Origin: an uncultured Candidatus Saccharibacteria bacterium
GTDB taxonomy: Bacteria; Patescibacteriota; Minisyncoccia; UBA6257
Length of the DNA stretch: 64,000 bases
Reading direction: 5' to 3'
Assembly: GCA_964479005.1 (NCBI GenBank)
Contig: CAYZJA010000001.1
Location: 80,642-144,641, forward strand
The position numbers and the translations under genes were made by a program. The notes beneath the pieces were generated by a model that saw only the letters and a program-made list of their open reading frames with translations, did not search any database and was not told the origin of the DNA. Shown one piece after another: positions 4,252 through 49,202 of this stretch. Numbering within the stretch: the stretch's first letter is position 1; every line of letters begins with the position of its first letter.

Positions 4252-5253
4252 ATGAAGAAAGGAAGTAATATTAATAAAGGCGAGATTGTTATTTATCGTC
4301 CCAAAAGTGGTGAAGTTGAAGTAAAAGTTAAATTGGAGAAAGAAACAATTTGGTTAACGCAAGCGCAAATTGCTTCACTTTTTGGTACAAAAAGACCAGC
4401 AATTACCAAGCACCTTAGTAATATTTTTAAAAGCGGGGAATTAGATAAAAATTCAGTATGTTCCATTTTGGAACATACTGCCGCTGATGGAAAAACGTAT
4501 AAAACCAAGTTTTATAATTTAGACATAATTATTTCTGTTGGCTATAGAGTGAATTCTAAAAGAGCGACACAGTTTAGGGTTTGGGCAACAAGAGTTTTAA
4601 AACAGCATATTCTTCAGGGTTACACCATTAATCAAAGGCGTTTATTAGAAACCAGGTCCAAGTTTAAAGAATTGCAGAATGCCATTGCTTTTTTACGGGA
4701 AAAATCAAGCAAGAAAACACTTAAAGGACAGGAAAAAGAGATATTAGATTTATTAGGTAATTATGCTAAAACACTGACTATTTTAAGGCAGTATGATAAA
4801 GGAAGAGTGCGGAAGTCAAAGGGTATGGAGGCTAAGTTTGTTTTAAGATATGATAATTGCAAGAATATTATCGTTGTATTAAAGAAAAATTTAATAGCAG
4901 AAAAAAAGGCTAGTGGTTTTTTTGGCGTTGAGACTGAAAGTAAATTTGAAGGTATAGCTAAAAATTTATACCAGACATTTGATAGAAAAATATTGTATAA
5001 AACTATTGAGGAAAAAGCAGCGCATTTACTTTACTTTACTATTAAAGATCATCCATTTGTAGATGGTAACAAGCGAATTGCTTCGTTTTTGTTTGTTTAT
5101 TTCTTAGATAAAAATGATTATCTTTATCGTAAGAATGGTGAGAAGAAAATAAATGATAATGCTTTAGTTGCTTTAGCTCTCTTGGTTGCAGTAAGTGATT
5201 CTAAAGAAAAAGATATTTTGATTAAAATAATCATAAATCTTATAAATACTTAA
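4252..5253 (+). CDS. RhuM-family virulence protein fused to a Fic/Doc domain
   Basis: N-terminus (IWLTQAQIASLFGTKRPAITKHL...YNLDIIISVGYRVNSKRATQFRVWATRVL) is RhuM-like. C-terminal HPFVDGNKRIASFL matches the Fic motif HPFx(D/E)GNGR. Confidence 0.75.
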   Translation: MKKGSNINKGEIVIYRPKSGEVEVKVKLEKETIWLTQAQIASLFGTKRPAITKHLSNIFKSGELDKNSVCSILEHTAADGKTYKTKFYNLDIIISVGYRVNSKRATQFRVWATRVLKQHILQGYTINQRRLLETRSKFKELQNAIAFLREKSSKKTLKGQEKEILDLLGNYAKTLTILRQYDKGRVRKSKGMEAKFVLRYDNCKNIIVVLKKNLIAEKKASGFFGVETESKFEGIAKNLYQTFDRKILYKTIEEKAAHLLYFTIKDHPFVDGNKRIASFLFVYFLDKNDYLYRKNGEKKINDNALVALALLVAVSDSKEKDILIKIIINLINT

Positions 5254-6577: not shown

Positions 6578-7363
6578 TTGTATATGTCCCAATATTACAA
6601 TTCACAAAGAACGCATGGATTATATGATTCTGCTTCAAAAGAGCCGTTTAAAATTTCGCGGTCAAAAATTGATTTGTTTTTGCAATGTCCGCGATGTTTT
6701 TATTTGGACAGAAAATTGGGAGTCGCGCGGCCGCCAGGATTTCCATTTGCTTTAAATAGCGCTGTTGATACTTTACTAAAACAGGAATTTGATATTTATC
6801 GCGCTAAAGGCGCAAAACATCCTTTTATGGAAACTTATAAGGTTGATGCTGTTCCTTTTAAACATGAAAAGCTTGAAGAATGGCGTGATGCAAGAACAAG
6901 GGGAATAACTTATCTCCACAAACCAACAGATTTATTAATTACTGGTGGCATTGATGATATTTGGGTAAATTCTAAAGGAGAATTAATTATTGTTGATTAC
7001 AAGGCAACATCAAAGAACGGAGAAGTGAGTTTAGACGCTGATTGGCAGATTAGCTATAAAAGACAAATGGAAATATATCAGTGGTTGTTTAGAAAAAACG
7101 GATTTAAAGTTTCTGATACTGGATATTTTGTTTATTGTAACGGTAAAACAGATGTAAAAGTTTTTGATAATAAATTGGAATTTGATGTCACTTTAATAGC
7201 ATATAAAGGTGATGATTCTTGGATAGAAAAAACTATTTCTGATATTCATAAATGTTTGAATAATGATAAAATTCCAAAAGCAGACGCTGATTGTGATTAT
7301 TGTAACTATGTTGAATCAGTAAAATCTAAAACAATAGAATCTAAAAACGGAACATTGTTTTAG
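6578..7363 (+). CDS. stand-alone Cas4/RecB-like PD-(D/E)XK nuclease with Fe-S cysteines
   Basis: N-terminal QCPRCFY plus C-terminal CDYCNY give four Cys. Motif II GGIDDIW, motif III IVDYKAT, Q-h-x-x-Y RQMEIYQW. No CRISPR array in the window. Confidence 0.6.
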   Translation: MYMSQYYNSQRTHGLYDSASKEPFKISRSKIDLFLQCPRCFYLDRKLGVARPPGFPFALNSAVDTLLKQEFDIYRAKGAKHPFMETYKVDAVPFKHEKLEEWRDARTRGITYLHKPTDLLITGGIDDIWVNSKGELIIVDYKATSKNGEVSLDADWQISYKRQMEIYQWLFRKNGFKVSDTGYFVYCNGKTDVKVFDNKLEFDVTLIAYKGDDSWIEKTISDIHKCLNNDKIPKADADCDYCNYVESVKSKTIESKNGTLF

Positions 7364-14359: not shown

Positions 14360-15247
14360 ATGGAAAATTTGGTAATAGGAGATGAGTTAGCTAAAAAATT
14401 AGCCAGGCAACTGAACTTAGATTTCATTTTAATAGAAGACAGGGTTTTTCCTGATGGTGAAGTACAGCCCCGTTTAGAAAAAGAGAAAAAAGCTAATAAA
14501 GCTATTTTAATTTTTCAGAAAAAACAAAACGAAGACATTAATACTTATTTAATTAAGTATTTTTTATTATTAAGAAAGCTAAAAGATCTTGCGCAAGAAA
14601 TAATATGTATCATGCCTTATTTTCCTTATGCTCGCCAAGATTCTATTTTCCAAGAAGGTGAATCTCTTTCCTCTTTGTACATTTCTGAATTAATAGAAAA
14701 AAATGCAGATGTTTTTATTACATGTAATATGCATGAACATAGAAAAAAAATTGGAGATTTATTTAAAATTTCAAGCCACAACGTCTTTCTTTTTCAGGAT
14801 TTGGCAGAAGAATTTGAAGATTTTTCCCCTTCTAATTCAGTGGTTATAGGCCCAGATAAAGAGTCTGAAGCATTTGTTAATGATTTCTGTAAAAGATTTT
14901 CCGCGCAAAAAGTGATTTTTCAGAAAACAAGAGATATTAAGACAGGAAAGATAGATTTTTCTTATGATAAAAATTGTGACTTCACAAATAAAGATGTTAT
15001 TATCGTAGACGATATTGTTTCAACTGGCAGAACTATTTTACAAGCGGCCGAGATAGCGAAAGAACTTAAAGCCAAAACAATTAGCTTTGCCTTTATTCAT
15101 TCCATATTTGGGGACAAAGCAATAGAACAATTGAGTAAAATAAATCCTAAGAAGATTGTATTTACAAATACTTTAGAAAACTCTTGTTTTTCAGTTGATA
15201 TTACCAAGCCGATAGCAAAATATATTTTAGAAAATAAATTAGTTTAA
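14360..15247 (+). CDS. prs: ribose-phosphate pyrophosphokinase (PRPP synthetase)
   Basis: FPDGEV in the N-terminal domain; PRPP-binding loop VIIVDDIVSTGRT. Confidence 0.7.
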   Translation: MENLVIGDELAKKLARQLNLDFILIEDRVFPDGEVQPRLEKEKKANKAILIFQKKQNEDINTYLIKYFLLLRKLKDLAQEIICIMPYFPYARQDSIFQEGESLSSLYISELIEKNADVFITCNMHEHRKKIGDLFKISSHNVFLFQDLAEEFEDFSPSNSVVIGPDKESEAFVNDFCKRFSAQKVIFQKTRDIKTGKIDFSYDKNCDFTNKDVIIVDDIVSTGRTILQAAEIAKELKAKTISFAFIHSIFGDKAIEQLSKINPKKIVFTNTLENSCFSVDITKPIAKYILENKLV

Positions 15248-31648: not shown

Positions 31649-32920
31649 ATGTTCAAAAATCTTTTAGCTCTATTACGAACGCCTGATTTAAGAAAAAAAG
31701 TAATTATAATTTTACTGCTCTTGGTGATTTTTCGGATAATGGCTACCATTCCATTGCCTAATGTTGACAGAGAGCAATTACAGGTTTTCCTCAGCGCTAA
31801 TCAGATATTCGGGCTTTTTAACGTTTTTACAGGAGGCGCTTTTAAAAATATTTCAATTGCTTTACTCGGTGTCGGGCCTTTTATTACAGCTTCTATTATA
31901 ATGCAGCTTCTTACCATGGTTTTTCCTGCCTTAAAAGAGATGCTTAGCCAAGGTACTGATAAAGAAAGAGCAAAATTTATGCAATATTCCCGTTTATTGA
32001 CGATTCCTTTAGCTGCTTTGCAGGGATTTGGTTTTTTAAATTTATTAAGCAGGCAGGGTGTTATTGTTTTTGCTAATCCTATTGATTTGATAAGAAGTGT
32101 TATTATAGTTACTACGGCTTCAATATTTTTGATGTGGATTGGTGAATTGATAACAGAACAAAAATTGGGAAATGGAATTTCTTTAATAATTTTTACAGGT
32201 ATTGTTATAGGTTTTCCACGTGAAATTATGCAAACAATAATAAGCACAGACCCAACAAGGCTTCCTAATATGATAGCGTTTTTTGCTATTGCGCTTTTGA
32301 TGATTGTAGGAGTGGTATTTATTTCAAGGGGAGAAAGAAGGATTCCTGTGAGTTATGCAAAGCAAGTGCGTGGAACAAAAATTTATGGGGGGGCTTCTAC
32401 ATATTTACCATTGAAAATCAATCAAGCTGGCGTAATTCCTATTATTTTTGCTCTTTCTATTTTAATGTTTCCTCAAATGATTAGTCAGTTTTTAGCAAAT
32501 TCACAAAGTCCGTTTATGCTTAAAATGGCTCTCTTTTTGCAAGGATTTAATCAACAATCATTAATTTATCTTGCTTGTTATTTTGGTTTGGTTGTTCTAT
32601 TTACGTTTTTTTATACAACCATTACTTTTAATCCTGAAACTATTGCTGAAAACTTACAAAAAAGAGGCGGTTTTGTTCCTGGTTATCGGCCTGGCAAAAT
32701 AACTTCACAATACCTTGTCAACACCAGCCATAAGGTTACTTTTTTTGGAGCTATATTCTTGGGCATGATCGCTATTCTTCCAATAATTATGCAGCAGACT
32801 ACCGGTGTTACCACTTTTGCTATTGGAGGTACTTCAATCTTAATTATGGTAAGTGTAGCTATAGAAGTCATGGATACAATAGAAGCTCAATTAATAATGC
32901 GTGAATATGAAATCTCATAA
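31649..32920 (+). CDS. secY: preprotein translocase subunit SecY
   Basis: 10-TM protein; ALLGVGPFITASIIMQLL, IFTGIVIGFP, plug/hinge regions. Confidence 0.97.
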   Translation: MFKNLLALLRTPDLRKKVIIILLLLVIFRIMATIPLPNVDREQLQVFLSANQIFGLFNVFTGGAFKNISIALLGVGPFITASIIMQLLTMVFPALKEMLSQGTDKERAKFMQYSRLLTIPLAALQGFGFLNLLSRQGVIVFANPIDLIRSVIIVTTASIFLMWIGELITEQKLGNGISLIIFTGIVIGFPREIMQTIISTDPTRLPNMIAFFAIALLMIVGVVFISRGERRIPVSYAKQVRGTKIYGGASTYLPLKINQAGVIPIIFALSILMFPQMISQFLANSQSPFMLKMALFLQGFNQQSLIYLACYFGLVVLFTFFYTTITFNPETIAENLQKRGGFVPGYRPGKITSQYLVNTSHKVTFFGAIFLGMIAILPIIMQQTTGVTTFAIGGTSILIMVSVAIEVMDTIEAQLIMREYEIS

Positions 32921-33551
32921 TATCATTTTTTTAGGACGCTCTGGTTCGGGAAAAGGCACACAGGCAGAATTATTAATGAAAAAATTCGCCTTAGTGAATA
33001 TAGATACAGGTGATATTTTAAGAAAGTTGGCAAGAAGAAAAGATAAATTTGGAAAAACGATTTTAGAAATCATGGACCAGGGGAAATTAGTTCCAATTTG
33101 GTTAGTACTTTATTGTTGGGTGGATAAACTTCTTAAAATTTCTTCCAAAAAAGGAATAATGATGGAAGGAAATCCTCGTCAGCTGGAAGAGGCAAAGATT
33201 TTAGAGGAAGTCTTTTCCTGGCTTGGGCGTGAAAATTTTAAAGTAGTTTATTTACGAACATCAGCAAAAGAAGTGATGCAGAGATTATTAATGAGGCGAA
33301 TTTGTTCTAAATGCGGCAGAGAATTTTCTTTGAATTTCACTCCAAATTTAAAAGAATGTTCTCATTGTAAAGGAAAATTGATTCGGCGATCTGATGATTA
33401 TCCAAAAGCTATCAAAAATAGAATGTTATTTTTTCAAAAAAAGATTTTACCTGTAATTAATTATTTTCGAAAGAAAAAAATTGTAATTGAGGTTAATGGA
33501 GAGGGTTCTATTGAAGAAATCCATAAAGGGATTCTTAAAAAATTATTGTGA
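32901..33551 (+). CDS. adk: adenylate kinase with Zn-binding LID (CxxC...CxxC)
   Basis: IIFLGRSGSGKGTQAELL P-loop; CSKCGREF...CSHCKGKLIRRSDD. Confidence 0.9.
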   Translation: MNMKSHNIIFLGRSGSGKGTQAELLMKKFALVNIDTGDILRKLARRKDKFGKTILEIMDQGKLVPIWLVLYCWVDKLLKISSKKGIMMEGNPRQLEEAKILEEVFSWLGRENFKVVYLRTSAKEVMQRLLMRRICSKCGREFSLNFTPNLKECSHCKGKLIRRSDDYPKAIKNRMLFFQKKILPVINYFRKKKIVIEVNGEGSIEEIHKGILKKLL

Positions 33552-34309
33552 TATATTTTAAAACTTCTCAAGATATCAGTATTCTACGTGAAGGCGGAAA
33601 AAAATTGGCATTAGTTTTAAAAAAAGTAACGCAGGCTGTTCAGCCAGGAATATCTACTGCTGATTTGGATAAATTGGCTTTTAATCTTATTTGTGAATAC
33701 GGGGGTAAACCCTCGTTTTTAAATTATCAACCAAGTTTTGCTAATAAGCCATTTCCATCAAGTTTATGTACTTCAATAAATGAAACTGTGGTTCATGGCC
33801 TTCCTTCAGAGAAAAAGATCTTAAAGCAAGGTGATGTGATTTCATTAGATTTAGGAATGGAGTATAAAGGATTATTTACTGATATGGCAGCAACAGTAGG
33901 CGTAGGAGAAATAAAGCCAATATATGAAAAATTGATAAAAATAACGAATGAGTCTTTATTACAAGCAATAAAAACGTCAAAGGTAGATAATACTTTGGGT
34001 GATATAGGTTATGCTATTCAAAAATGTGTAGAAAAAGAGGGATTTGTTGTTGTAAAAGGTTTAGTGGGGCATGGAGTTGGTTATTCTCCGCATGAAGATC
34101 CTGTTGTTTTTAATTATGGAACCCCGCATCAGGGGTTAAAATTGGAAGAGGGTATGGTTATAGCAATAGAGCCAATGGTGACTTTTGATGATGGAACTGT
34201 AAAAGAAGAAAAAGATGGCAGTTTTGTGACTCTCAATGGAAGAGTATCGGGTCATTTTGAACATACAGTGGCTATTACAAAAAAGGGACCAATAGTAATT
34301 ACGGAGTAA
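33548..34309 (+). CDS. map: type I methionine aminopeptidase
   Basis: Pita-bread fold metal ligands (D...D...HGVGYSPHEDP...E...E), typical MetAP. Confidence 0.93.
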   Translation: MIYFKTSQDISILREGGKKLALVLKKVTQAVQPGISTADLDKLAFNLICEYGGKPSFLNYQPSFANKPFPSSLCTSINETVVHGLPSEKKILKQGDVISLDLGMEYKGLFTDMAATVGVGEIKPIYEKLIKITNESLLQAIKTSKVDNTLGDIGYAIQKCVEKEGFVVVKGLVGHGVGYSPHEDPVVFNYGTPHQGLKLEEGMVIAIEPMVTFDDGTVKEEKDGSFVTLNGRVSGHFEHTVAITKKGPIVITE

Positions 34310-34330
34310 CAAAGGCGAGGAGATATATAA

Positions 34331-34525
34331 GCAAGTATTTCTCTTTCACTCCTACATTCCAGCAGAGACAAACAATACTCACTCACTCGGGAACACCTTC
34401 CGAAATTCCGCTTCGCCACGTTAAACGTGGCTTCGCTCCAGTTTCGGCTTTCCTTTTCGTTCGTTTCATTTGTTTGTATCTCTGCTTCCATTAATGTCGT
34501 TCAGGAGCAAATACTTGCTTTAATA
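34331..34525. repeat. ~195-bp imperfect palindromic element with 11-bp terminal inverted repeats (MITE-like, or a long RNA hairpin)
   Basis: agcaagtattt (34331-34341) vs aaatacttgct (34515-34525). Arms share agcagaga-caaacaa. Centre cgccacgttaaacgtggc. GC content is higher than the surrounding sequence. Confidence 0.5.
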
Positions 34526-34681
34526 TTTTTTCAACAGCCTCTTCTTGCATTAAACTTTTATACATTCACACTTTGTTAATTGTTATTTGTTTTTTGTTTA
34601 TATCCTGGAGGTTGACCTTCGAGCAATAATGTGGTAGCATATAAATGTCCAAAAATGGACATTGTTTTTTTGACAAAAGAA

Positions 34682-34808
34682 TAAAAATATAGAAAATAAA
34701 AATATAGAAATTATAGAAAAGGAGATTAAGAAATGAAAAAAAAGAAAGGAAAAAAGGAAAAAAGAATCAAAGAATCAAAGAATCAAAGAATCAAAGAAAA
34801 TGATACCG
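34682..34808. repeat. low-complexity tandem repeats
   Basis: (ataaaaatatagaaa) x2, then (gaatcaaa) x4.5 inside an A/G-rich stretch. Confidence 0.7.
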
Positions 34809-34964
34809 TCTGATGAGGAGATTGGAAAAATGCTGGATATGTCTGAGTTTGTACAAGTAATGTATATCGATTGGGGAAATCCACTGGGCACAAAGCCCAT
34901 CAAATCAAAGTCAAAATAAAAGCCAGAGGAGATAAAAAAATATAGAAAAAGGAGGTGAAATGTA

Positions 34965-35225
34965 ATGTTAAAAGTTGTAATAAAGGTTTTGTCTTTATTT
35001 GTTTTTATAGTTTTATGTTCATTATTTGCTGATAAAGCTTTATCTCAAATGATAAGTCTTTATGATAAATTTGGAACGAGATATATCATTGCAATTAATG
35101 GATTTGAATTTCTGAGTTTTATCTTTTGGACGGGGTTTATAGTCATGACTTTAATTATATTAAAGATAATTATATTGGTTGCTACAGAAAAGAAAGAAGA
35201 AAAGCAAGAAGAAGTAGAAGAATAA
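34965..35225 (+). CDS. small membrane protein, unknown function
   Basis: GGAGGTG RBS; two TM helices; K/E-rich C-terminus. Confidence 0.5.
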   Translation: MLKVVIKVLSLFVFIVLCSLFADKALSQMISLYDKFGTRYIIAINGFEFLSFIFWTGFIVMTLIILKIIILVATEKKEEKQEEVEE

Positions 35226-35230
35226 AAAAT

Positions 35231-35270
35231 GACCCTCGCATCTATGGAGAGATAGGTGTGAGGGTTTTTT
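35231..35270 (+). terminator. intrinsic terminator
   Basis: accctcgcatctatggagagataggtgtgagggt followed by tttttt. Confidence 0.55.
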
Positions 35271-35310
35271 ATTTTCTTAAATTTTTGGTATACTACAGTA
35301 TATATAGAAG

Positions 35311-35769
35311 ATGAATGAACTTTGGACTATTATTATTGCTGGTTCTCCGATAGTTGAATTGCGAGGGGCGATTCCTGTGGCTATGGGAATTTTTAATTTT
35401 GCTTGGCCTAAAGCGTTAATTTTAAGTTTAATTGGGAATATTTTACCAATTATTCCTATAATTTGGTTTTTAGACAAATTATCTGATTATTTGAGTAAAC
35501 AATTTGATATTTTTAATCGTTTTTTTAATTGGCTTTTTGAAAGAACTAGGAAAAAGACAGAAAACAGCTTTAATAAATGGGGAAAATGGGCCTTAGTGGC
35601 ATTTGTTGCGATTCCTTTGCCTTTTACAGGGGTTTGGACTGGTTCAATAGCGGCATTTTTGTTTGGTGTTAAGTACAGAAACGCTTTTTGGCTTATTAGT
35701 TTGGGAGCGCTTTTTGCCGGGATATTAGTTACGATTTTAACTCTTTTAGGCACAAATATATTTTCATGA
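35311..35769 (+). CDS. small membrane protein, COG2426 / Sm_multidrug_ex-like
   Basis: PIVELRGAIPVAMG motif and four TM helices. Confidence 0.4.
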   Translation: MNELWTIIIAGSPIVELRGAIPVAMGIFNFAWPKALILSLIGNILPIIPIIWFLDKLSDYLSKQFDIFNRFFNWLFERTRKKTENSFNKWGKWALVAFVAIPLPFTGVWTGSIAAFLFGVKYRNAFWLISLGALFAGILVTILTLLGTNIFS

Positions 35770-36550: not shown

Positions 36551-37120
36551 ATGGATAAGAAGTATATTATAATTATAGCTATCTTAATTATTGTTAGTGG
36601 AATTTTTGCTTCGCTTATGATTTATGAAAAATTGACAGGAGTAAACAAAATTGAACCATTAGGGATAGCATCGGAAAATATTATAGTGGCAGGAGATGAA
36701 GAAGAAATAGTTCAGGTTATTACGCCAGCGACTGTAGATCAGGAGATAGAATTAGCAGCTAATTGTGATGCTTTTCCTGATATGTTAACATCTTGTACAA
36801 AATATAAATGTCAATTTATTCATCCATTTACTGGCGAGGATATGAAGAGAGAAATTTTGGGAATAATTGATGGAAAATGTAATTATATTGAGCAGATGCC
36901 TAATAGTGGGCAAATGGAATGTAAATATACAGAAAGTTTTAGAAAAGTTGTCGCTCAATATTATAGGGATATTGAATATGCAGAATCTATTGGATTTGAA
37001 ATAGATATAGATTTAGGAAGTGAAGAGCAAGTAACAAAATATACTATAGACGGCAAAGAGGTAGCAAATCCTCTGCAAGAAGCGACAGACACTGGAATTT
37101 GTATTATCTCAGGCTATTAA
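36551..37120 (+). CDS. membrane-anchored extracytoplasmic hypothetical protein
   Basis: N-terminal TM anchor; Cys-containing, acidic. Confidence 0.45.
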   Translation: MDKKYIIIIAILIIVSGIFASLMIYEKLTGVNKIEPLGIASENIIVAGDEEEIVQVITPATVDQEIELAANCDAFPDMLTSCTKYKCQFIHPFTGEDMKREILGIIDGKCNYIEQMPNSGQMECKYTESFRKVVAQYYRDIEYAESIGFEIDIDLGSEEQVTKYTIDGKEVANPLQEATDTGICIISGY

Positions 37121-40518: not shown

Positions 40519-40526
40519 TCTATTGA

Positions 40527-40943
40527 CGATTGAACCTATAAGCCGAATTCTGTATCCTGTTAAACAGGACGATAGTCATTTATCTAGCCCTGAAATTACT
40601 CTCAGGGTCAAGCGGCCACTTTCTGACAAATGTCAGAACACGAGCCTTGCACCCAGTAAGGATTTAGCCGTTTCATTCTTGAAATTGCTTTCAAGACTCA
40701 CCCTAATTAAAAAATAATTAGGGTGTTTTGAACTTTTCAGTTCAAAACGTCTCTGTTCGCACCTCTATTCCAGTTGTAAATCCGTCATTAGCGTTACCGC
40801 TAAGAGGCAAAAACTGGAGCGATAGCTGTTAGCTATTACCTTTTACCAACTTTGTTTTAGGCAAAATTGGTGGTGTTCGGACTTTCCTCCCCGCCTAAGT
40901 TTTGCGAACAAAATTTTGGCGGGGTAACTACCCAGTTCAATCG
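40527..40943 (-). ncRNA. rnpB: RNase P RNA (bacterial type A-like)
   Basis: Minus strand reads CGAUUGAAC (P1)...UUACCCCGCC-loop-GGCGGGG (P3)...AGGAAAGUCCGAACACC (P4 5' strand)...AGGGUGA...ACAGAAUUCGGCUUAUAGG (P4 3' strand)...GUUCAAUCG (P1). Confidence 0.85.
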
Positions 40944-46488: not shown

Positions 46489-46695
46489 GCGGGCATCGTA
46501 TAGTGGCAGTACGTAACCTTCCCAAGCCCCCACACCAAACGAGTATCATTGCGAGATTAGTATAGTGGTAGTACATCACCTTCCCAAGGTGAAGGTGCCG
46601 GTCCGATTCCGGTATCTCGCTCCGTTTAAAATTTAAAATACTCGTTGTGGTGTGGGGGCAAGGTTAAAGTGTGGGTTCGATTCCCATTGTCCGCT
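46489..46695 (+). tRNA. tRNA-Gly(CCC) gene interrupted in the anticodon loop by a 136-nt insert (5' half 46489-46525, 3' half 46662-46695)
   Basis: GCGGGCA-TC-GTAT-AGTGGCA-GTAC-G-TAACC-TTCCCAA // GGTTA-AAGT-GTGGG-TTCGATT-CCCAT-TGTCCGC-T. All stems pair. The junction is ambiguous across a 3-nt AAG direct repeat. Confidence 0.6.
46551..46621 (+). tRNA. second tRNA-Gly(CCC)-like gene nested inside the insert; atypical T-loop TCCGATT
   Basis: GCGAGAT-TA-GTAT-AGTGGTA-GTAC-A-TCACC-TTCCCAA-GGTGA-AGGT-GCCGG-TCCGATT-CCGGT-ATCTCGC-T. Flanked by 20-bp inverted repeats at 46527-46546 and 46638-46658. Confidence 0.6.
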
Positions 46696-46778
46696 CAAAT
46701 TATTTTTTCGTTACTATCCAAAAAGATTGACGAAGTTTCAAGTGCAATATGGTTTTGTATAATCTTTTTACATTGCTC

Positions 46779-46807
46779 TTGACAAATAGTTTTACATCGC
46801 ATATACT
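46779..46807 (+). promoter_or_regulatory. sigma70-like promoter TTGACA-N17-TATACT, with a second TGTATAAT -10 at 46757-46764, for the accessory operon
   Basis: cttgacaaatagttttacatcgcatatact. Confidence 0.55.
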
Positions 46808-46848
46808 GGAGTTAGGTCGTAATAATTAACTATTTCATCACCAAAGCT

Positions 46849-47136
46849 ATGGCTACAAAAAAATTTAGTCCAACAAGAACAATAACGCAAAAAAACCTCG
46901 AAAATGTACCTGGCGACAAGCCAGGTGTCTATCGCATCAAAAACGCGTCAAATGATATTCTTTACATAGGTAAAGCAAAAGGAGGTAGATTAGATGACAG
47001 AATCGCTGAACATAAAGGACAATTCCAAGGTGGAACGAAATTCCAGTATAGATTAACTCACAGCAAAGATGCCGCCGAGCGATTAGAGCGTAAAGAAATT
47101 CGTGAATGGAAACCGCCTAGAAATAAAGATAAATAA
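46849..47136 (+). CDS. small stand-alone GIY-YIG nuclease-domain protein
   Basis: KPGVYRIKNASNDILYIGKAKGGRLDDRIAEH...ERKEIREWKPPRN has GIY/YIG, Arg and Glu positions. Confidence 0.6.
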   Translation: MATKKFSPTRTITQKNLENVPGDKPGVYRIKNASNDILYIGKAKGGRLDDRIAEHKGQFQGGTKFQYRLTHSKDAAERLERKEIREWKPPRNKDK

Positions 47137-47139
47137 TTT

Positions 47140-47625
47140 ATGCCCTCTTCGTTAAAAACATACGCGAGCATAGAAGACATCAATAGAATTTATATGAGGG
47201 CTAATGCGCATAGTCTTACCGAAAGAATTAATAAGGATAGTGGTCTTGAACAAGATGTTTTATACATAGAAGCCTTTTTATTGCAAGCAACGTTATTGGA
47301 AGGCGTTCTTGTTAATCTTGGTCTAAGATTATTAGAAAGCAAAAAAGAATTAACTGGGCTTAAAGGTAAAAGATACGTTAAATATGGTTATGATAATGCG
47401 ATCAATGATTTATATTTAATGAATGCGATAAAAACAAAAGAGTTTAATTTATTAGAGAAATATAAATCAAAAAGAAATAAGTATATTCATAATCTATTGT
47501 CAAAAAATACGGAGTGTATAGAAAATGAGGTTTTGGATATTCATAATCAGTATAAAGATTTTGTTTGGAAAATGATAAAAAAATTGGGGAGATTAGAGAA
47601 AAAAAGATTAAGTAAAAAAAAATAA
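47140..47625 (+). CDS. HEPN-like hypothetical protein (RNxxxH motif)
   Basis: KRNKYIHNLL matches Rx4H in a helical context; no other homology recognised. Confidence 0.3.
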   Translation: MPSSLKTYASIEDINRIYMRANAHSLTERINKDSGLEQDVLYIEAFLLQATLLEGVLVNLGLRLLESKKELTGLKGKRYVKYGYDNAINDLYLMNAIKTKEFNLLEKYKSKRNKYIHNLLSKNTECIENEVLDIHNQYKDFVWKMIKKLGRLEKKRLSKKK

Positions 47626-47629
47626 AACT

Positions 47630-48406
47630 GTGCTTACAAAATTTATTCAAAAATTGCGAAAAAAGAATAATATGACGCAGGAATTTTTGGCGTCCGAGTT
47701 GAATATCTCTCGTCCTACTTATGTTCAAATAGAACAAGGCGAACGGGATTTAACTATCACCGAAGCGGAAAAACTAGCTTCTATTTTTGGAATTTCTTTT
47801 GAAGATTTTAGACATGGAAAAGATTCTTCAATTACCGCAAAAATTGAAAAGAATAAAATCAAACCAAAAATAGGAAAACAAGAGATAAGAATTAACGTCC
47901 CGCAAAAAAATCTTAAAAAATTTAAGGAAGTTTTACTTTATGTTTTGTCAAAAGTCGGCGGTAAATCAAATGTCGGCGAAGCGGTATTATATAAACTGCT
48001 TTATTTTATTGATTTTGATTTTTACGAAAAATTTGAGGAACAATTGATTGGCGCGACATATATTAAAAATCATTATGGGCCAACTCCTGTTGAGTTTAAA
48101 GCTATTATTGGCAATATGATTCAAAACGATGAAGTCGTAAAAGTTGAGGGAAAATATTTTAATTATCCACAAAGAAAATATCTGCCAGTTAGACGGCCAG
48201 ATCTTAATGTTTTATCTGGACGAGAGATAGAACATATTGATGATGTTTTGGCGCGTCTTGCTGATAAAAATGCTAAAGAAATGGAAAATTACTCCCATGA
48301 AGATATTCCGTGGAAAACGGCGGAAAATGGCAAACCACTTTCCTACGAAAGTGTTTTTTATCGTGACGAACGTTATTCTGTAAGAAATTATGAAGACGAA
48401 CTTTAA
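47630..48406 (+). CDS. XRE-family HTH fused to a Panacea (DUF4065) domain; putative antitoxin
   Basis: N-terminal MTQEFLASELNISRPTYVQIEQGERDLTITEAEKLASIFG (HTH_XRE). C-terminal AVLYKLLYFIDFDFYEKFEEQLIGATYIKNHYGPTPVEF matches the Panacea core. Confidence 0.55.
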   Translation: MLTKFIQKLRKKNNMTQEFLASELNISRPTYVQIEQGERDLTITEAEKLASIFGISFEDFRHGKDSSITAKIEKNKIKPKIGKQEIRINVPQKNLKKFKEVLLYVLSKVGGKSNVGEAVLYKLLYFIDFDFYEKFEEQLIGATYIKNHYGPTPVEFKAIIGNMIQNDEVVKVEGKYFNYPQRKYLPVRRPDLNVLSGREIEHIDDVLARLADKNAKEMENYSHEDIPWKTAENGKPLSYESVFYRDERYSVRNYEDEL

Positions 48407-48725
48407 TGAACTATCTGAATTTTCTAAGGAATTTAAGCGGTTTTCAAAAAAATATAAATCGTTATATGATGACTTAGAAGAGTTTAAGCGCATCGTTGAT
48501 GTTGTACCATTAGGAAATAGCAAGCATTTTAATATTATTACACAAAACGAGCAATGCACCGTTATTAAGGCTCGTTTCTTTTGTCGTTATTTAAAACACT
48601 CTTCTTTAAGGATTATCTACGCTTTTTACAGCCAAAATTGTAAAATTGAGTTTATTGAGATATATTTTAAAGGCGAAAAAAATAATGAGGATCGCGAGAG
48701 AATCAAAGATTACTTGAAAGATTAA
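48390..48725 (+). CDS. RelE/ParE-superfamily type II toxin-like protein
   Basis: 111 aa, overlaps the upstream gene by 17 nt. ...RIIYAFYSQNCKIEFIEIYFKGEK resembles the RelE/YafQ C-terminal beta-strands. Confidence 0.45.
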   Translation: MKTNFNELSEFSKEFKRFSKKYKSLYDDLEEFKRIVDVVPLGNSKHFNIITQNEQCTVIKARFFCRYLKHSSLRIIYAFYSQNCKIEFIEIYFKGEKNNEDRERIKDYLKD

Positions 48726-48734
48726 AAATAGATT

Positions 48735-49202
48735 TTGTTATTCTCTCACAGAAAATTTATGGATAAAAGAATAATCAGGGAAAAATTGGATTTAATCAGA
48801 GGAGAAGTTATCTCATCCGCCACAAGAGTTGAGTTCGTTCTCGGCTATCGCTTAAGAAGGTATTTTTTTCCTAAAAGTAATAATAAAGCAACAATTCTTT
48901 TTTGGAATGTTATGAATACTCCTTACCTTACTTTTGATAATAAAATTAGTATTTATGAATCAATACCTTATTTTAAAAAATTGAAAGGTTATCCTACTAT
49001 TAAAAAATCTTTGAGATTTGTTCAGAGGTTGAGAAATACAATGGCTCATTGGGATTTAGATGAAAAGAAAAGCGATCTTAAAAATATTTTTATGTTCACA
49101 TTAGTTGGGAAATATAGAAAAATAACAATTAACGATAACTTGATTGAAAATTATAGAAAACAGATTACTTTTCTTCTAAAAAAATTTGGTTATAGTAGAT
49201 GA
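48735..49202 (+). CDS. short Abi_2 (AbiD/AbiF)-like HEPN protein
   Basis: VQRLRNTMAHWD matches the RNxxAH HEPN motif of Abi_2 family proteins. Confidence 0.4.
   Translation: MLFSHRKFMDKRIIREKLDLIRGEVISSATRVEFVLGYRLRRYFFPKSNNKATILFWNVMNTPYLTFDNKISIYESIPYFKKLKGYPTIKKSLRFVQRLRNTMAHWDLDEKKSDLKNIFMFTLVGKYRKITINDNLIENYRKQITFLLKKFGYSR

What the first reader, a model, noticed from the sequence alone, without database searches (positions are those of the whole stretch)
34310..34964. Ribosomal mega-operon ends after map in a 650-bp non-coding island with a ~195-bp palindromic element and low-complexity repeats
In almost all bacteria map/secY/adk is followed by infA-rpmJ-rpsM-rpsK-rpsD-rpoA-rplQ. Here the block stops and is replaced by:
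- (i) a GC-richer imperfect palindrome (34331-34525) with 11-bp terminal inverted repeats (agcaagtattt / aaatacttgct), arm-to-arm similarity (agcagaga-caaacaa) and a central cgccacgttaaacgtggc core; this is MITE-like or a long RNA hairpin;
- (ii) a promoter-like TTGACC-N17-TAGCAT followed by a small hairpin and U-tract;
- (iii) tandem repeats (ataaaaatatagaaa x2, gaatcaaa x4.5) with a possible 39-aa ORF (MIPSDEEIGKMLDMSEFVQVMYIDWGNPLGTKPIKSKSK).

This could be a rearrangement scar left by a mobile element, or an unrecognised structured RNA.
Basis: partly seen in the sequence, partly recalled or inferred. Interest (0 to 1): 0.55.

Follow-up and report, generated by a model that had tools for sequence, protein, structure and literature searches.

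The report
Conserved hairpin element behind ribosomal operon
The 195-base palindrome after the ribosomal-protein operon is real and belongs to a previously uncatalogued family of conserved, low-copy hairpin elements that turn up at different spots between genes in related tiny (CPR/Paceibacteria) bacteria, while the 'broken' operon is simply normal for this group.

Summary
The interpretation needs splitting.

1. **Operon end.** The stop after map is clade-wide. No Patescibacteria-labelled locus among 55 without the block has infA-rplQ within about 6 kb of map. The nearest GTDB relative has the same map→Sm_multidrug_ex-TIM-PGK junction with only 10 nt between. It is not a recent scar.

2. **The palindrome (E, 34329-34521).** It belongs to a family of 175-215-nt rod-like hairpins, with 12 distinct sequences from metagenomes.
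   - 9-10 base pairs show compensatory changes.
   - The internal loops are nearly invariant and the apex varies in length.
   - There is no Rfam 15 match, no coding potential and no phage or plasmid match.
   - I found one copy per contig, including contigs of 150-300 kb.
   - It lies in six different intergenic contexts, usually 0-20 nt after a stop codon.
   - Orthologous sites in relatives are empty or carry decayed remnants.
   - Its similarity does not track host phylogeny.
   - It travels with, or sits nested in, a second palindrome (M).

Best reading (confidence 0.45): a dispensable, relocating palindromic element of the REPIN/ERIC/MITE kind, kept as a single-strand hairpin. Main rival (0.28): a stand-alone structured sRNA.

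3. **Promoter and small hairpin.** Both are conserved in relatives.

4. **The 39-aa ORF.** It is not conserved.

The parts
33548..34309 (+). map (methionine aminopeptidase), the last gene of the ribosomal-protein/secY/adk/map operon
   Evidence: Pfam Peptidase_M24, E = 1.6e-42. The gene order S19...L15-SecY-ADK-M24 is annotated in the identical JGI contig L006.
34311..34325 (+). Left half of the outer 'M' palindrome (AAAGGCGAGGAGATA, Shine-Dalgarno-like)
   Evidence: This is the only match in the window. The same motif flanks E in L105, L112/L114, L116 and L113. It pairs with 34526-34546 in the extended fold.
34329..34521 (.). Element E: a 193-nt imperfect palindrome forming a rod-like hairpin, member of a conserved family. 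The strand that functions is unresolved (pairing statistics lean to the - strand).
   Evidence: Folds. The covariance-model hit 34327-34525 scores 228 bits and is the only copy in the window. Homologues and covariation.
34329..34346 (.). E basal stem, 5' arm. It pairs with 34504-34521.
   Evidence: 7 of 15 pairs in this helix show changes on both sides across the family, GCAAGTATTT/AAATACTTGC versus CTGAATATTCC/GGAATATTCAG.
34360..34375 (.). E middle stem, 5' arm (CAGCAGAGACAAACAA). It pairs with 34470-34485.
   Evidence: It is invariant in the family, but this arm contains the 21-mer used to fish the family out.
34376..34388 (.). E central internal loop, 5' side (TACTCACTCACTC). It faces 34454-34469 (TTTTCGTTCGTTTCAT).
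   Evidence: It is unpaired in the + strand fold and nearly invariant in 12 sequences. On the - strand the same bases can form C-G/G.A/A.G/A-U tandem G.A motifs (my reading of the sequence).
34410..34436 (.). E apex: the palindrome CACGTTAAACGTG (34417-34429) flanked by the direct repeat GCTTCGC (34410-34416 and 34430-34436)
   Evidence: Short family members carry a single GCTTCGC and no insert. Others carry 13-, 26- or 32-nt palindromic inserts between two GCTTCGC copies.
34470..34521 (.). E 3' arm (middle and basal stems). It contains the positions where short-read assemblies break (34474/34475 and 34486/34487).
34526..34546 (-). Right half of the outer M palindrome (TTTTTTCAACAGCCTCTTCTT; on the - strand AAGAAGAGGCTGTTGAAAAAA)
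   Evidence: It aligns with the M motif in L095/L107 and L102 and pairs with 34311-34325.
34572..34598 (+). A 7-nt tandem repeat, (TTTGTTA) x3.9
   Evidence: TRF. Similar TTGTTAn runs lie to the right of E in L115 and L108.
34612..34640 (+). Sigma-70-type promoter TTGACC-N17-TGgTAGCAT for the small-ORF unit downstream
   Evidence: Promoter scan. It is conserved in L095, L100, L102 and L103.
34644..34671 (+). 8-bp hairpin plus T-run. It is probably the intrinsic terminator of the ribosomal operon, and it overlaps the start of the new transcript.
   Evidence: Terminator scan. It is conserved, with a C-G→U-A compensatory change. In L100 and L103 it follows map almost directly.
34680..34798 (+). 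Low-complexity tandem repeats (15-nt x2.1, 8-nt x4.8) occupying the place where relatives have ORF-A
   Evidence: TRF. Relatives have a 53-55-aa ORF-A at this position.
34800..34919 (+). 39-aa ORF, probably not a gene
   Evidence: No Pfam match. No similarity to ORF-A of relatives.
34965..35225 (+). 86-aa small membrane protein with an acidic tail (ORF-B), a real conserved gene
   Evidence: 39% identity to ORF-B of L103, E = 2e-12. It is followed by a strong terminator at 35231-35266.
35311..35769 (+). Sm_multidrug_ex gene, the ancestral right-hand neighbour of map
   Evidence: Pfam E = 1.1e-37. It lies 10 nt after map in L011.

Best explanation
The palindrome (E) is one copy of a family of dispensable, relocating palindromic elements of Paceibacteria, the same general kind as REPIN, ERIC, Correia and MITE elements.

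It is a 175-215-nt module that sits between genes, usually directly behind a stop codon. It lies beside or inside a second palindrome (M). It is lost or decays easily, and it appears at different intergenic sites in related genomes.

Selection keeps it foldable as one long hairpin in a single strand. That strand could be RNA, because E lies in transcribed spacers, or single-stranded DNA during mobilisation. The conserved internal loops are the likely recognition surface for whatever protein moves or binds it.

In this window it was added to a pre-existing variable spacer between map and a conserved promoter. It has nothing to do with the operon ending there.

- **Shown:** family membership, hairpin covariation, presence/absence, decay, different locations, nesting with M, and incongruence with host genes.
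- **Inferred:** that it moves, rather than being repeatedly lost from many ancestral sites; the enzyme involved; and the strand and molecule that folds.
For: **Family and hairpin**
- An exact 21-mer from the left arm recovers 13 metagenome loci holding 11 further distinct copies.
- All copies fold as one rod.
- On the + strand 96.9% of cells are paired, and 9 pairs change on both sides. On the - strand 98.4% are paired, and 10 pairs change on both sides. Both exceed the shuffled and slid controls.

**Sporadic distribution at the map site**
- Among relatives with 86-91% Map identity, only L095 has E.
- L100 and L103 have none. L102 keeps only M. L096 keeps M plus a 33-nt remnant of E's right end.

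**Relocation**
- In L111 (83-85% aa identity to the window), E, M and a third palindrome fill 344 nt behind prs.
- The window's orthologous spacer is 5 nt.

**The hrcA-corA spacer occurs in four states**
- Empty (L126, 122 nt).
- M only (L122).
- M plus a 41-nt mini-E made of the two termini (L129).
- Full E plus M, in both orientations (L105 and L116 versus L114 and L117).

**Contexts and conservation**
- There are six contexts in all, with neighbours confirmed by Pfam.
- E identity is 84-99% whatever the host distance, and it contradicts CorA relationships. L105-L113: CorA 63% aa, E 93%. L113-L114: CorA 76% aa, E 87%.

**Nesting, as described for REPIN clusters**
- E lies inside M in the window.
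- Palindromic inserts flanked by GCTTCGC repeats lie inside E's apex.
- M is found only beside E or its remnants.

**Termination does not need E**
- The small hairpin plus T-run is present in relatives that lack E.
Against: - **Copy number.** Only one copy per contig was seen: the 64-kb window, 765 kb of loci, and contigs of 152, 199 and 300 kb. A non-autonomous repeat family normally has many copies.
- **No insertion footprint or enzyme.** I could not define a target-site duplication. No transposase or RAYT is encoded in the window.
- **Conservation pattern.** It is the reverse of a TIR-driven MITE. The termini are the most variable part (they covary) and the internal loops are the most conserved, which is what a functional RNA looks like.
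- **Strand asymmetry.** One-sided substitutions are tolerated as G.U mainly on one strand. That asymmetry points to a single-stranded functional form.
- **Sampling bias.** All family members were found with one exact 21-mer, so apparent conservation is inflated and breadth is unknown.
Confidence: 0.45

Rival explanations
1. E is a stand-alone gene for a structured small RNA, a rod-shaped RNA of about 190 nt. One possibility is a 6S-like RNA that mimics open promoter DNA. Another is a protein-binding RNA whose conserved purine-rich internal loops (tandem G.A on the - strand) are the binding sites. On this reading it happens to lie after map in this lineage.
For: - Single copy per contig.
- The length, the closing stem, the 13 x 16-nt central internal loop and the variable terminal stem resemble the 6S layout (the 6S layout is from my own knowledge).
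- Stems covary, while loops are almost invariant and the apex varies.
- One-sided changes give G.U at 15 pair positions against 8 mismatched on the - strand, versus 5 against 14 on the + strand (my count).
- The - strand MFE is lower in 12 of 12 sequences and its z-score is lower in 9 of 12.
- GC is 0.42 in a genome of about 0.32.
Against: - No match to 6S or any other Rfam family, even at E <= 10, in three family members.
- E is absent, deleted down to its termini, or reduced to a fragment in close relatives at the same site.
- It lies at different loci in genomes with 83-85% aa identity.
- E similarity is incongruent with CorA/HrcA similarity and far higher than 6S-type RNAs usually keep at 63% protein identity (the comparison with 6S is from my own knowledge).
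- No promoter travels with E in either orientation.
- In 4 of 4 co-directional contexts the better-pairing - strand is antisense to the flanking genes.
Confidence: 0.28
2. E works in cis as part of the mRNA of the upstream gene. It would be a very long 3' stem-loop that terminates transcription or protects the 3' end of the ribosomal-operon transcript from exonucleases.
For: - E starts 0-20 nt after the stop codon of a co-directional gene in five independent contexts: map, rplS, prs, a CAP-domain gene and a 129-aa ORF.
- In the window and L095 it is followed by a T-rich run, TTTAATATTTTTT and TTTATTTTTTTT.
- Its orientation is the same in 4 of 4 co-directional contexts.
Against: - Relatives without E terminate with the conserved small hairpin plus T-run, which the window also has.
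- The T-run after E is missing in most other contexts.
- In hrcA-corA spacers E lies between divergent genes, in either orientation, where it cannot be a 3' UTR.
- The terminator scan does not call E.
- Conserved internal loops are not needed for a terminator.
Confidence: 0.1
3. E acts as DNA. It could be a hairpin in single-stranded DNA, such as a priming or single-strand-origin-like signal or a site for a hairpin-binding recombinase. Alternatively it could be a duplex carrying short iterated motifs, (CACT)3 and (CGTT/TGTT)n, bound by a protein.
For: - It folds as DNA at -30.1 kcal/mol, z = -6.1.
- It works in either orientation relative to its neighbours in the hrcA-corA spacer.
- Tetranucleotide periodicity in the conserved 'loops' and TTGTTAn repeats lie next to E.
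- Assemblies break at E.
Against: - No replication-related landmark. Cumulative GC skew rises steadily through the region.
- The better-pairing strand is the leading-strand template in co-directional contexts, not the exposed lagging-strand template (inference).
- No associated recombinase or replication gene lies nearby.
Confidence: 0.1
4. The island is a scar of the rearrangement that separated infA-rpmJ-rpsM-rpsK-rpsD-rpoA-rplQ from map.
For: The block is missing from the window. It follows map in all 25 retrieved loci that carry it, all from other phyla.
Against: - No Patescibacteria-labelled locus has the block within about 6 kb of map.
- L011 (57% Map identity) has the same junction with a 10-nt spacer.
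- L100 and L103 have the junction without E or M.
- The break is therefore much older than the island.
Confidence: 0.03

Closest known systems
[quoted passage not shown]
   Same: - Intergenic position.
- Two conserved inverted units that fold into one long hairpin in ssDNA or mRNA.
- Compensatory changes across the hairpin.
- A less conserved spacer at the tip.
- Clusters formed by insertion of one element into or next to another (PMC3116915, read). This compares with E inside M and the inserts inside E's apex.
   Different: - REPINs occur in tens to hundreds of copies and lie near a RAYT transposase gene. E was seen once per contig, and no RAYT/Y1 gene is in the window.
- E is about twice as long.
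- Its conserved core includes non-complementary loop sequences.
ERIC/IRU elements of enterobacteria, and Correia and RUP-type MITEs (from my own knowledge)
   Same: - Imperfect palindromes of roughly 100-200 bp in transcribed intergenic regions, often just behind stop codons.
- High sequence conservation across species.
- Size variants caused by internal insertions and deletions.
- Presence/absence between strains.
   Different: - No sequence similarity.
- A different phylum.
- Low or single copy.
- No TA or other target duplication found.
- The termini are the variable part rather than the conserved part.
6S RNA (Rfam RF00013)
   Same: - About 185-nt rod with a closing stem, a large central internal loop and a variable terminal stem.
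- Single copy.
- Often processed from a longer transcript (from my own knowledge).
   Different: - No covariance-model match, even at E <= 10.
- Sporadic and decaying in close relatives.
- Loop sequences are far more conserved than in 6S families.
- No promoter of its own was found.
Integron attC sites (from my own knowledge)
   Same: - Imperfect palindromes right behind ORFs that act as folded single strands.
- A variable terminal structure and strand asymmetry.
   Different: - No R'/R'' GTTRRRY boxes.
- No array of cassettes.
- No integrase nearby.
- E is highly conserved in sequence, whereas attC sites are not.

Membership tests
Any Rfam 15 family (including 6S RF00013, SRP RNA, known hairpin motifs) | Covariance-model score at or near the family's gathering threshold | tested here: not met
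   - At the gathering threshold the window gives only RNase P RNA and 3 tRNAs.
- At E <= 10 over 34200-35350, L107:4640-4900 and L113:4120-4345, the only hits are chance-level ones to unrelated families.
- Twelve family loci scanned at the gathering threshold give only tRNAs.
6S RNA | Rod of about 185 nt with a closing stem, a large central bubble and a terminal stem | tested here: inconclusive
   The + strand fold has a 13 x 16-nt internal loop between long stems. On the - strand the same region is predicted to be largely paired through G.A and G.U.
6S RNA | Present as a stable gene in essentially all members of a lineage | tested here: inconclusive
   E is missing or decayed at the orthologous site in L096, L098, L100, L102, L103, L122, L126 and L129. 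The rest of those genomes could not be searched.
6S RNA | Binds RNA polymerase holoenzyme and templates pRNA | not testable with these tools
   Needs biochemistry.
MITE | Terminal inverted repeats | tested here: met
   11-18-bp terminal inverted repeats. However, the whole element is one palindrome, and the termini are its most variable part.
MITE | Target-site duplication flanking the element | tested here: inconclusive
   No consistent direct repeat flanks the 11 copies. The filled versus empty prs site differs by a composite 344-nt block, so the junctions are ambiguous.
MITE | Many copies per genome | tested here: not met
   There is one copy in the 64-kb window and none elsewhere in 765 kb of related loci. 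The 21-mer gives one match in each contig of 152, 199 and 300 kb. Whole genomes were not available.
MITE | Presence/absence at orthologous sites | tested here: met
   The map site, the prs site and the hrcA-corA site.
MITE / REPIN | A cognate transposase (DDE, or Y1/RAYT) in the genome | tested here: inconclusive
   None was found among the window's ORFs scanned with Pfam. About 490 kb of the source genome could not be examined.
REPIN | Two inverted conserved units forming a hairpin, with compensatory changes and a less conserved tip | tested here: met
   The definition comes from PMC3116915.
Intrinsic terminator | Short GC-rich stem-loop immediately followed by a U-tract | tested here: not met
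   E is not called by the scan. The scan calls 34644-34663 and 35231-35266 instead. The T-run after E is present only in the window and L095.
Protein-coding gene or pseudogene | An open reading frame conserved among homologues | tested here: not met
   - Length differences among copies (175, 177, 196, 200, 209, 210, 215 nt) break every frame.
- A chimeric six-frame peptide query found nothing among 5.8 billion proteins.
- The 79-aa antisense ORF has no Pfam match.

The most novel reading that the evidence does not exclude
E is a new class of rod-shaped functional RNA of CPR bacteria, probably transcribed from the - strand. Its invariant purine-rich internal loops (tandem G.A motifs, several GGA) would bind a conserved protein such as RNA polymerase, an RNA chaperone or a ribosomal factor. 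Its gene would itself be mobile between intergenic sites. That would make it a small RNA gene behaving like a selfish cassette, something not described for any bacterial sRNA.
Probability: 0.25. Interest if true: 0.75.

Novelty: new variant of a known kind. Interest (0 to 1): 0.5.

Why it matters
CPR/Patescibacteria genomes are tiny and tightly packed, and almost nothing is known about their non-coding or selfish DNA. I found no paper on MITE-like elements or structured RNAs of this kind in them.

A 190-nt element that is better conserved than the neighbouring protein genes, kept as a hairpin, nested with other palindromes and hopping between spacers would be one of two things:
- the first palindromic mobile-element system described in this radiation, which raises the question of which enzyme moves it in a 0.5-Mb genome; or
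- a new structured RNA.

There is also a practical point. These hairpins are places where short-read assemblies of CPR genomes break.

The negative result is useful as well. An operon that stops after map is the normal state in this group and should not be flagged as an anomaly.

Tried and rejected
- **Rfam.** Gathering and E <= 10 scans of the window and of family members gave no match.
- **18-nt core in viral contigs.** Four hits share only the 18-19-mer with no flank similarity, so I count them as chance. The family 21-mer in viral contigs gave 0 hits.
- **blastn of E against phage and plasmid records.** No match.
- **blastn of the whole island against 80 map loci from GTDB species.** Only AT-rich noise.
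- **Chimeric six-frame peptide search.** I hoped to find contigs where gene callers had called spurious ORFs across E. 1932 candidates were retrieved and none was significant, so that search was wasted.
- **Coding hypothesis** for the 79-aa antisense ORF and the 50-aa sense ORF. Rejected, because indels among homologues break the frames.
- **Promoter travelling with E.** I looked in both orientations and found nothing convincing or conserved.
- **M as the start of a small ORF (MLLKKPSRRP...).** Rejected. The reading frame ends after 5-61 codons at different places, and M occurs in both orientations.
- **Inversion of the segment between the arms as the cause of the Logan contig breaks.** The predicted breakpoints (after 34367 and 34477) do not fit the observed ones (34374, 34474, 34487), so this is left unexplained.
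- **K-turn reading of the G.A motifs.** The strand order of stem, bulge and G.A does not fit. This is my own reasoning and was not tested.
- **Transposase in the window.** None was found.
Full report
**1. What is there**

The window is a low-GC (about 0.32) genome segment. It is identical, around the finding, to JGI contig Ga0309839_1000001 (551,616 bp) and to contigs from several other samples. Its relatives are labelled Paceibacterota/Patescibacteria, that is, CPR bacteria.

The ribosomal-protein cluster runs through secY (31649-32920) and adk (32901-33551) to map (33548-34309). A 655-nt stretch without a credible gene follows. Next come an 86-aa ORF (34965-35225) and Sm_multidrug_ex (35311-35769). 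After these lie TIM, a hypothetical gene, SIMPL, PGK, a DHH protein and RNase H, with RNase P RNA on the opposite strand.

- The 11-nt terminal repeats are at 34330-34340 and 34509-34519. This is the only match in the window, against 0 in 100 shuffles.
- The inner arms are at 34364-34375 and 34470-34481.
- The core is at 34414-34431.
- The promoter-like site is at 34612-34640, with a TG extension.
- The hairpin plus T-run is at 34644-34663.
- The tandem repeats are confirmed.
- The 39-aa ORF is confirmed.

The palindrome folds far better than shuffles on both strands: + strand -63.9 kcal/mol (z = -8.6), - strand -67.5 kcal/mol (z = -6.6).

**2. The operon end is not an anomaly of this genome**

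infA, rpmJ, rpsM, rpsK, rpsD, rpoA and rplQ are nowhere in the 64 kb.

I retrieved 80 loci from GTDB species that carry a Map homologue.
- 25 loci have infA (or rpmJ) through rplQ directly after map. All are from other phyla, such as Acidobacteriota and Clostridia.
- 55 loci have none of these genes within about 6 kb. This group includes every locus labelled Patescibacteria, Paceibacterota, Saccharibacteria, Nomurabacteria and similar.

The closest GTDB species is L011 (57% Map identity). It has map, a 10-nt spacer, then Sm_multidrug_ex-TIM-SIMPL-PGK-DHH-RNase H, the same junction as here. The break is therefore old and clade-wide, and the island was added later to an existing junction.

**3. 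The spacer is a variable region in close relatives**

A protein search with Map gave a graded series of relatives, and I fetched their contigs. All of them have map ... Sm_multidrug_ex-TIM. The space between ranges from 620 to 2008 nt.

Most of them share a conserved module:
- the promoter TTGACy-N17-TGGTAGCAT;
- a hairpin AUGUCy...rGACAU, which shows a C-G to U-A compensatory change;
- a T-run.

In L100, L102, L103 and L095 a pair of small genes follows. ORF-A is 53-55 aa. ORF-B is 92-105 aa, a membrane protein with an acidic tail.

The window keeps ORF-B, as the 86-aa ORF, at 39% identity and E = 2e-12. Where ORF-A should be, it has tandem repeats and the 39-aa ORF, which is unrelated to ORF-A.

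The palindrome itself is present only in L095 (90% Map identity). There it starts right at the map stop codon and carries a 13-nt insertion at the tip that simply lengthens the apical stem. It folds at -65.6 kcal/mol, z = -8.6.
- L100 and L103 go from map straight into the promoter.
- L102 keeps only part of the outer palindrome M.
- L096 keeps a complete M hairpin plus a 33-nt remnant of the palindrome's right end.

**4. The palindrome belongs to a family**

A 21-mer that is identical in the window and L095 (GCAGAGACAAACAATACTCAC) has 13 exact matches in JGI metagenome contigs. It has none in viral contigs. Together with the window, these give 12 distinct sequences of 175-215 nt. All fold into a single rod.

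Evidence for selection on pairing:
- On the + strand, 46 consensus pairs are 96.9% paired, and 9 pairs change on both sides.
- On the - strand, 51 pairs are 98.4% paired, and 10 pairs change on both sides.
- In the cell-based measures (percentage paired, cells changed on both sides, covariation score), 0 of 500 column shuffles reach the observed values.
- For the number of pairs changed on both sides, 1 shuffle reaches it on the + strand and 4 on the - strand.
- Sliding the 3' partner by 1-3 columns drops pairing to 35-51%.

Where the variation lies:
- The basal stem exists in two forms, GCAAGUAUUU/AAAUACUUGC and CUGAAUAUUCC/GGAAUAUUCAG.
- An inner stem has three states: CCGAAA/UUUCGG, CCGGAA/UUCCGG and CCAGAA/UUCUGG.
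- The apex is either absent, leaving a single GCTTCGC, or carries palindromic inserts of 13, 26 or 32 nt between two GCTTCGC copies.
- The two sides of the central internal loop, TACTCACTCACTC and TTTTCGTTCGTTTCGT, are almost invariant. The left side was partly fixed by the search word, but the right side was not.

What the element is not:
- It is not a known RNA family.
- The length differences break all reading frames.
- A six-frame peptide query finds nothing.
- Nothing similar exists in phage or plasmid records.

**5. Which strand?**

The evidence conflicts.

For the - strand:
- Its MFE is lower in 12 of 12 sequences.
- Its z-score is lower in 9 of 12.
- Its consensus energy is -52.4 against -37.1 kcal/mol.
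- One-sided substitutions keep pairing as G.U at 15 pair positions against 8 mismatched. The + strand figures are 5 against 14. This is my count, over partly different pair sets.
- The conserved 'loops' can form C-G/G.A/A.G/A-U motifs on this strand.

For the + strand:
- In all four contexts where both neighbours point the same way, E's + strand is the sense strand.
- In five independent contexts E begins 0-20 nt after a stop codon.

I leave the strand open.

**6. Distribution argues for a dispensable, relocating element**

I found one copy per contig. This holds for the window, for 765 kb of loci searched with model R1, and for contigs of 152, 199 and 300 kb.

There are six contexts:
- after map (window, L095/L106/L107, L104);
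- after rplS and before a tRNA (L109);
- after prs (L111);
- between a CAP-domain gene and a sortase gene (L108/L110);
- between a 129-aa ORF and a convergent PD-(D/E)XK nuclease gene (L115);
- in the corA upstream spacer (L105, L116 and L112/L114/L117 with hrcA; L113 with rplU).

Orthologous sites can be empty:
- The window's prs (14360-15247) is followed after 5 nt by the next gene. L111 is 83-85% identical in three flanking proteins, yet it has 344 nt there, made of E, M and a third GC-rich palindrome.
- The hrcA-corA spacer is 122 nt and empty in L126.
- It holds M and the third palindrome but no E in L122.
- It holds M plus a 41-nt mini-E consisting of only the two termini in L129.
- It holds full E plus M in L105, L116 and L114/L117. 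The E-M block is inverted between the last two arrangements.

E is 84-99% identical in all pairs. The adjacent genes are only 72-88% identical at the DNA level. E similarity also contradicts CorA similarity:
- L105-L113: CorA 63% aa, E 93%.
- L113-L114: CorA 76% aa, E 87%.

**7. Nesting with other palindromes**

The motif M (AAAGGCGAGGAGATGTTGTTGAAAAAA; Shine-Dalgarno-like on one arm, anti-Shine-Dalgarno-like on the other) occurs in my data only next to E or next to its remnants.
- On its own it forms a hairpin of about 70 nt (L096, L116).
- In the window its two halves (34311-34325 and 34526-34546) flank E, so E sits in the M loop.
- In L105, L111, L114 and L122 another GC-rich palindrome sits in the M loop.

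Insertion of one palindromic element into or next to another, hairpins in ssDNA or mRNA, and compensatory changes are what has been described for REPIN clusters (PMC3116915).

**8. Interpretation**

The best-supported reading is that E is a selfish or at least dispensable palindromic element of the REPIN/ERIC/MITE kind. It relocates among intergenic sites and is maintained as a single-strand hairpin. It was added to an already variable spacer behind map (confidence 0.45).

Features that do not fit a textbook MITE or REPIN:
- single copy;
- no target duplication;
- no transposase in the window;
- termini that vary while the loops are conserved.

These same features keep alive the rival that E is a small structured RNA gene, 6S-like in shape (0.28). 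Against that rival stand its sporadic and decaying distribution, its incongruent similarity, and the lack of a promoter of its own.

A pure terminator role is unlikely (0.10), because the small conserved hairpin plus T-run does that job in relatives without E. A DNA-level role remains possible (0.10). The 'rearrangement scar' is refuted (0.03).

**9. Caveats**

- All family members were fished out with one exact 21-mer, so conservation is overestimated and breadth is unknown.
'One copy per genome' is therefore an extrapolation from contigs.
- No expression data were available.
- Short-read assemblies repeatedly break inside or next to E. Logan contigs end at 34474 or 34374 and restart at 34487, and corA contigs start in the E-M cluster. 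I could not tell whether this reflects hairpin-related coverage loss or real population variants.

Noticed in passing
window 34374/34375, 34474/34475, 34486/34487; L117-L121 starts: Short-read (Logan, MEGAHIT) contigs from at least five samples stop inside the palindrome and restart 12 nt later, while JGI assemblies run through it. Contigs carrying corA in other organisms likewise begin inside or beside the E-M palindrome cluster. The cause could be coverage loss at hairpins or population variants. An inversion model did not fit the breakpoints.
   Followed up: partly
window 34311-34325 and 34526-34546; L096:3950-4018; L116:9140-9215; L129:1276-1345; L122:2180-2345: A second palindrome (M) has one Shine-Dalgarno-like arm (AAAGGCGAGGAGAT) and one anti-Shine-Dalgarno-like arm. 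It is found only beside E or its remnants. A third GC-rich palindrome (GTCGCGCAGGCCGA...) is nested in its loop in several genomes. Function unknown.
   Followed up: partly
window 34612-34671; L095, L100, L102, L103 downstream of map: A conserved promoter (TTGACy-N17-TGGTAGCAT) is followed directly by a conserved 8-9-bp hairpin plus T-run. The hairpin lies at the predicted transcription start. It may therefore terminate the ribosomal operon while transcripts that start inside it escape termination. The escape idea is speculative.
   Followed up: partly
window 34680-34919 versus L095:5208-5375, L100:4890-5051, L103:3874-4035: Relatives have a conserved 53-55-aa ORF-A (M..I.IF..E.PY...KLKF.FKEVK) overlapping the start of ORF-B. 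In the window ORF-A is replaced by lysine-rich tandem repeats and an unrelated 39-aa ORF. Neither ORF-A nor ORF-B matches any Pfam family above its gathering score.
   Followed up: partly
L096:4183-5811 and L098:4920-6490: In two relatives the same spacer holds five small ORFs, including two cysteine-rich paralogues (CP..W/Q.....PCSYP...CG....LC.YR..EIG...C) and an internal 194-nt duplication at 98% identity. The map-Sm_multidrug_ex spacer appears to be a hotspot for small accessory genes.
   Followed up: no
window 36551-37120: A 189-aa ORF with no Pfam match lies between TIM and SIMPL. It is absent from L011, L095, L096, L098 and L100, so it is another lineage-specific insertion in the same gene row.
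   Followed up: no
window 46551-49202: After tRNA-Gly there is a small islet containing three things. The first is a 95-aa GIY-YIG/DUF7508 ORF. The second is an HTH plus SocA/Panacea antitoxin-like protein (47630-48406). The third is a set of three ORFs with no Pfam match. The islet looks like a mobile or defence-related insertion.
   Followed up: no
window 4252-5253 and 6578-7363: A RhuM plus Fic/DOC protein and a Cas4-like PD-(D/E)XK nuclease lie close together. No CRISPR array or cas genes were seen nearby.
   Followed up: no
window 40523-40943 (- strand): RNase P RNA (class A, 110 bits, just above the gathering score of 100) is encoded antisense to the general gene direction, between the RNase H gene and a DUF4012 gene.
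   Followed up: no
L098:3360-4004: adk is split into two ORFs (60 and 129 aa) in this relative. This is either a frameshift or an assembly error.
   Followed up: no
L114 (reverse strand) next to E; L116; L122:2157-2183; L126:2401-2427: The CIRCE operator (TTAGCACTC-N9-GAGTGCTAA-like) is present upstream of hrcA-grpE-dnaK in these Paceibacteria, immediately beside the E-M cluster where that cluster is present.
   Followed up: no
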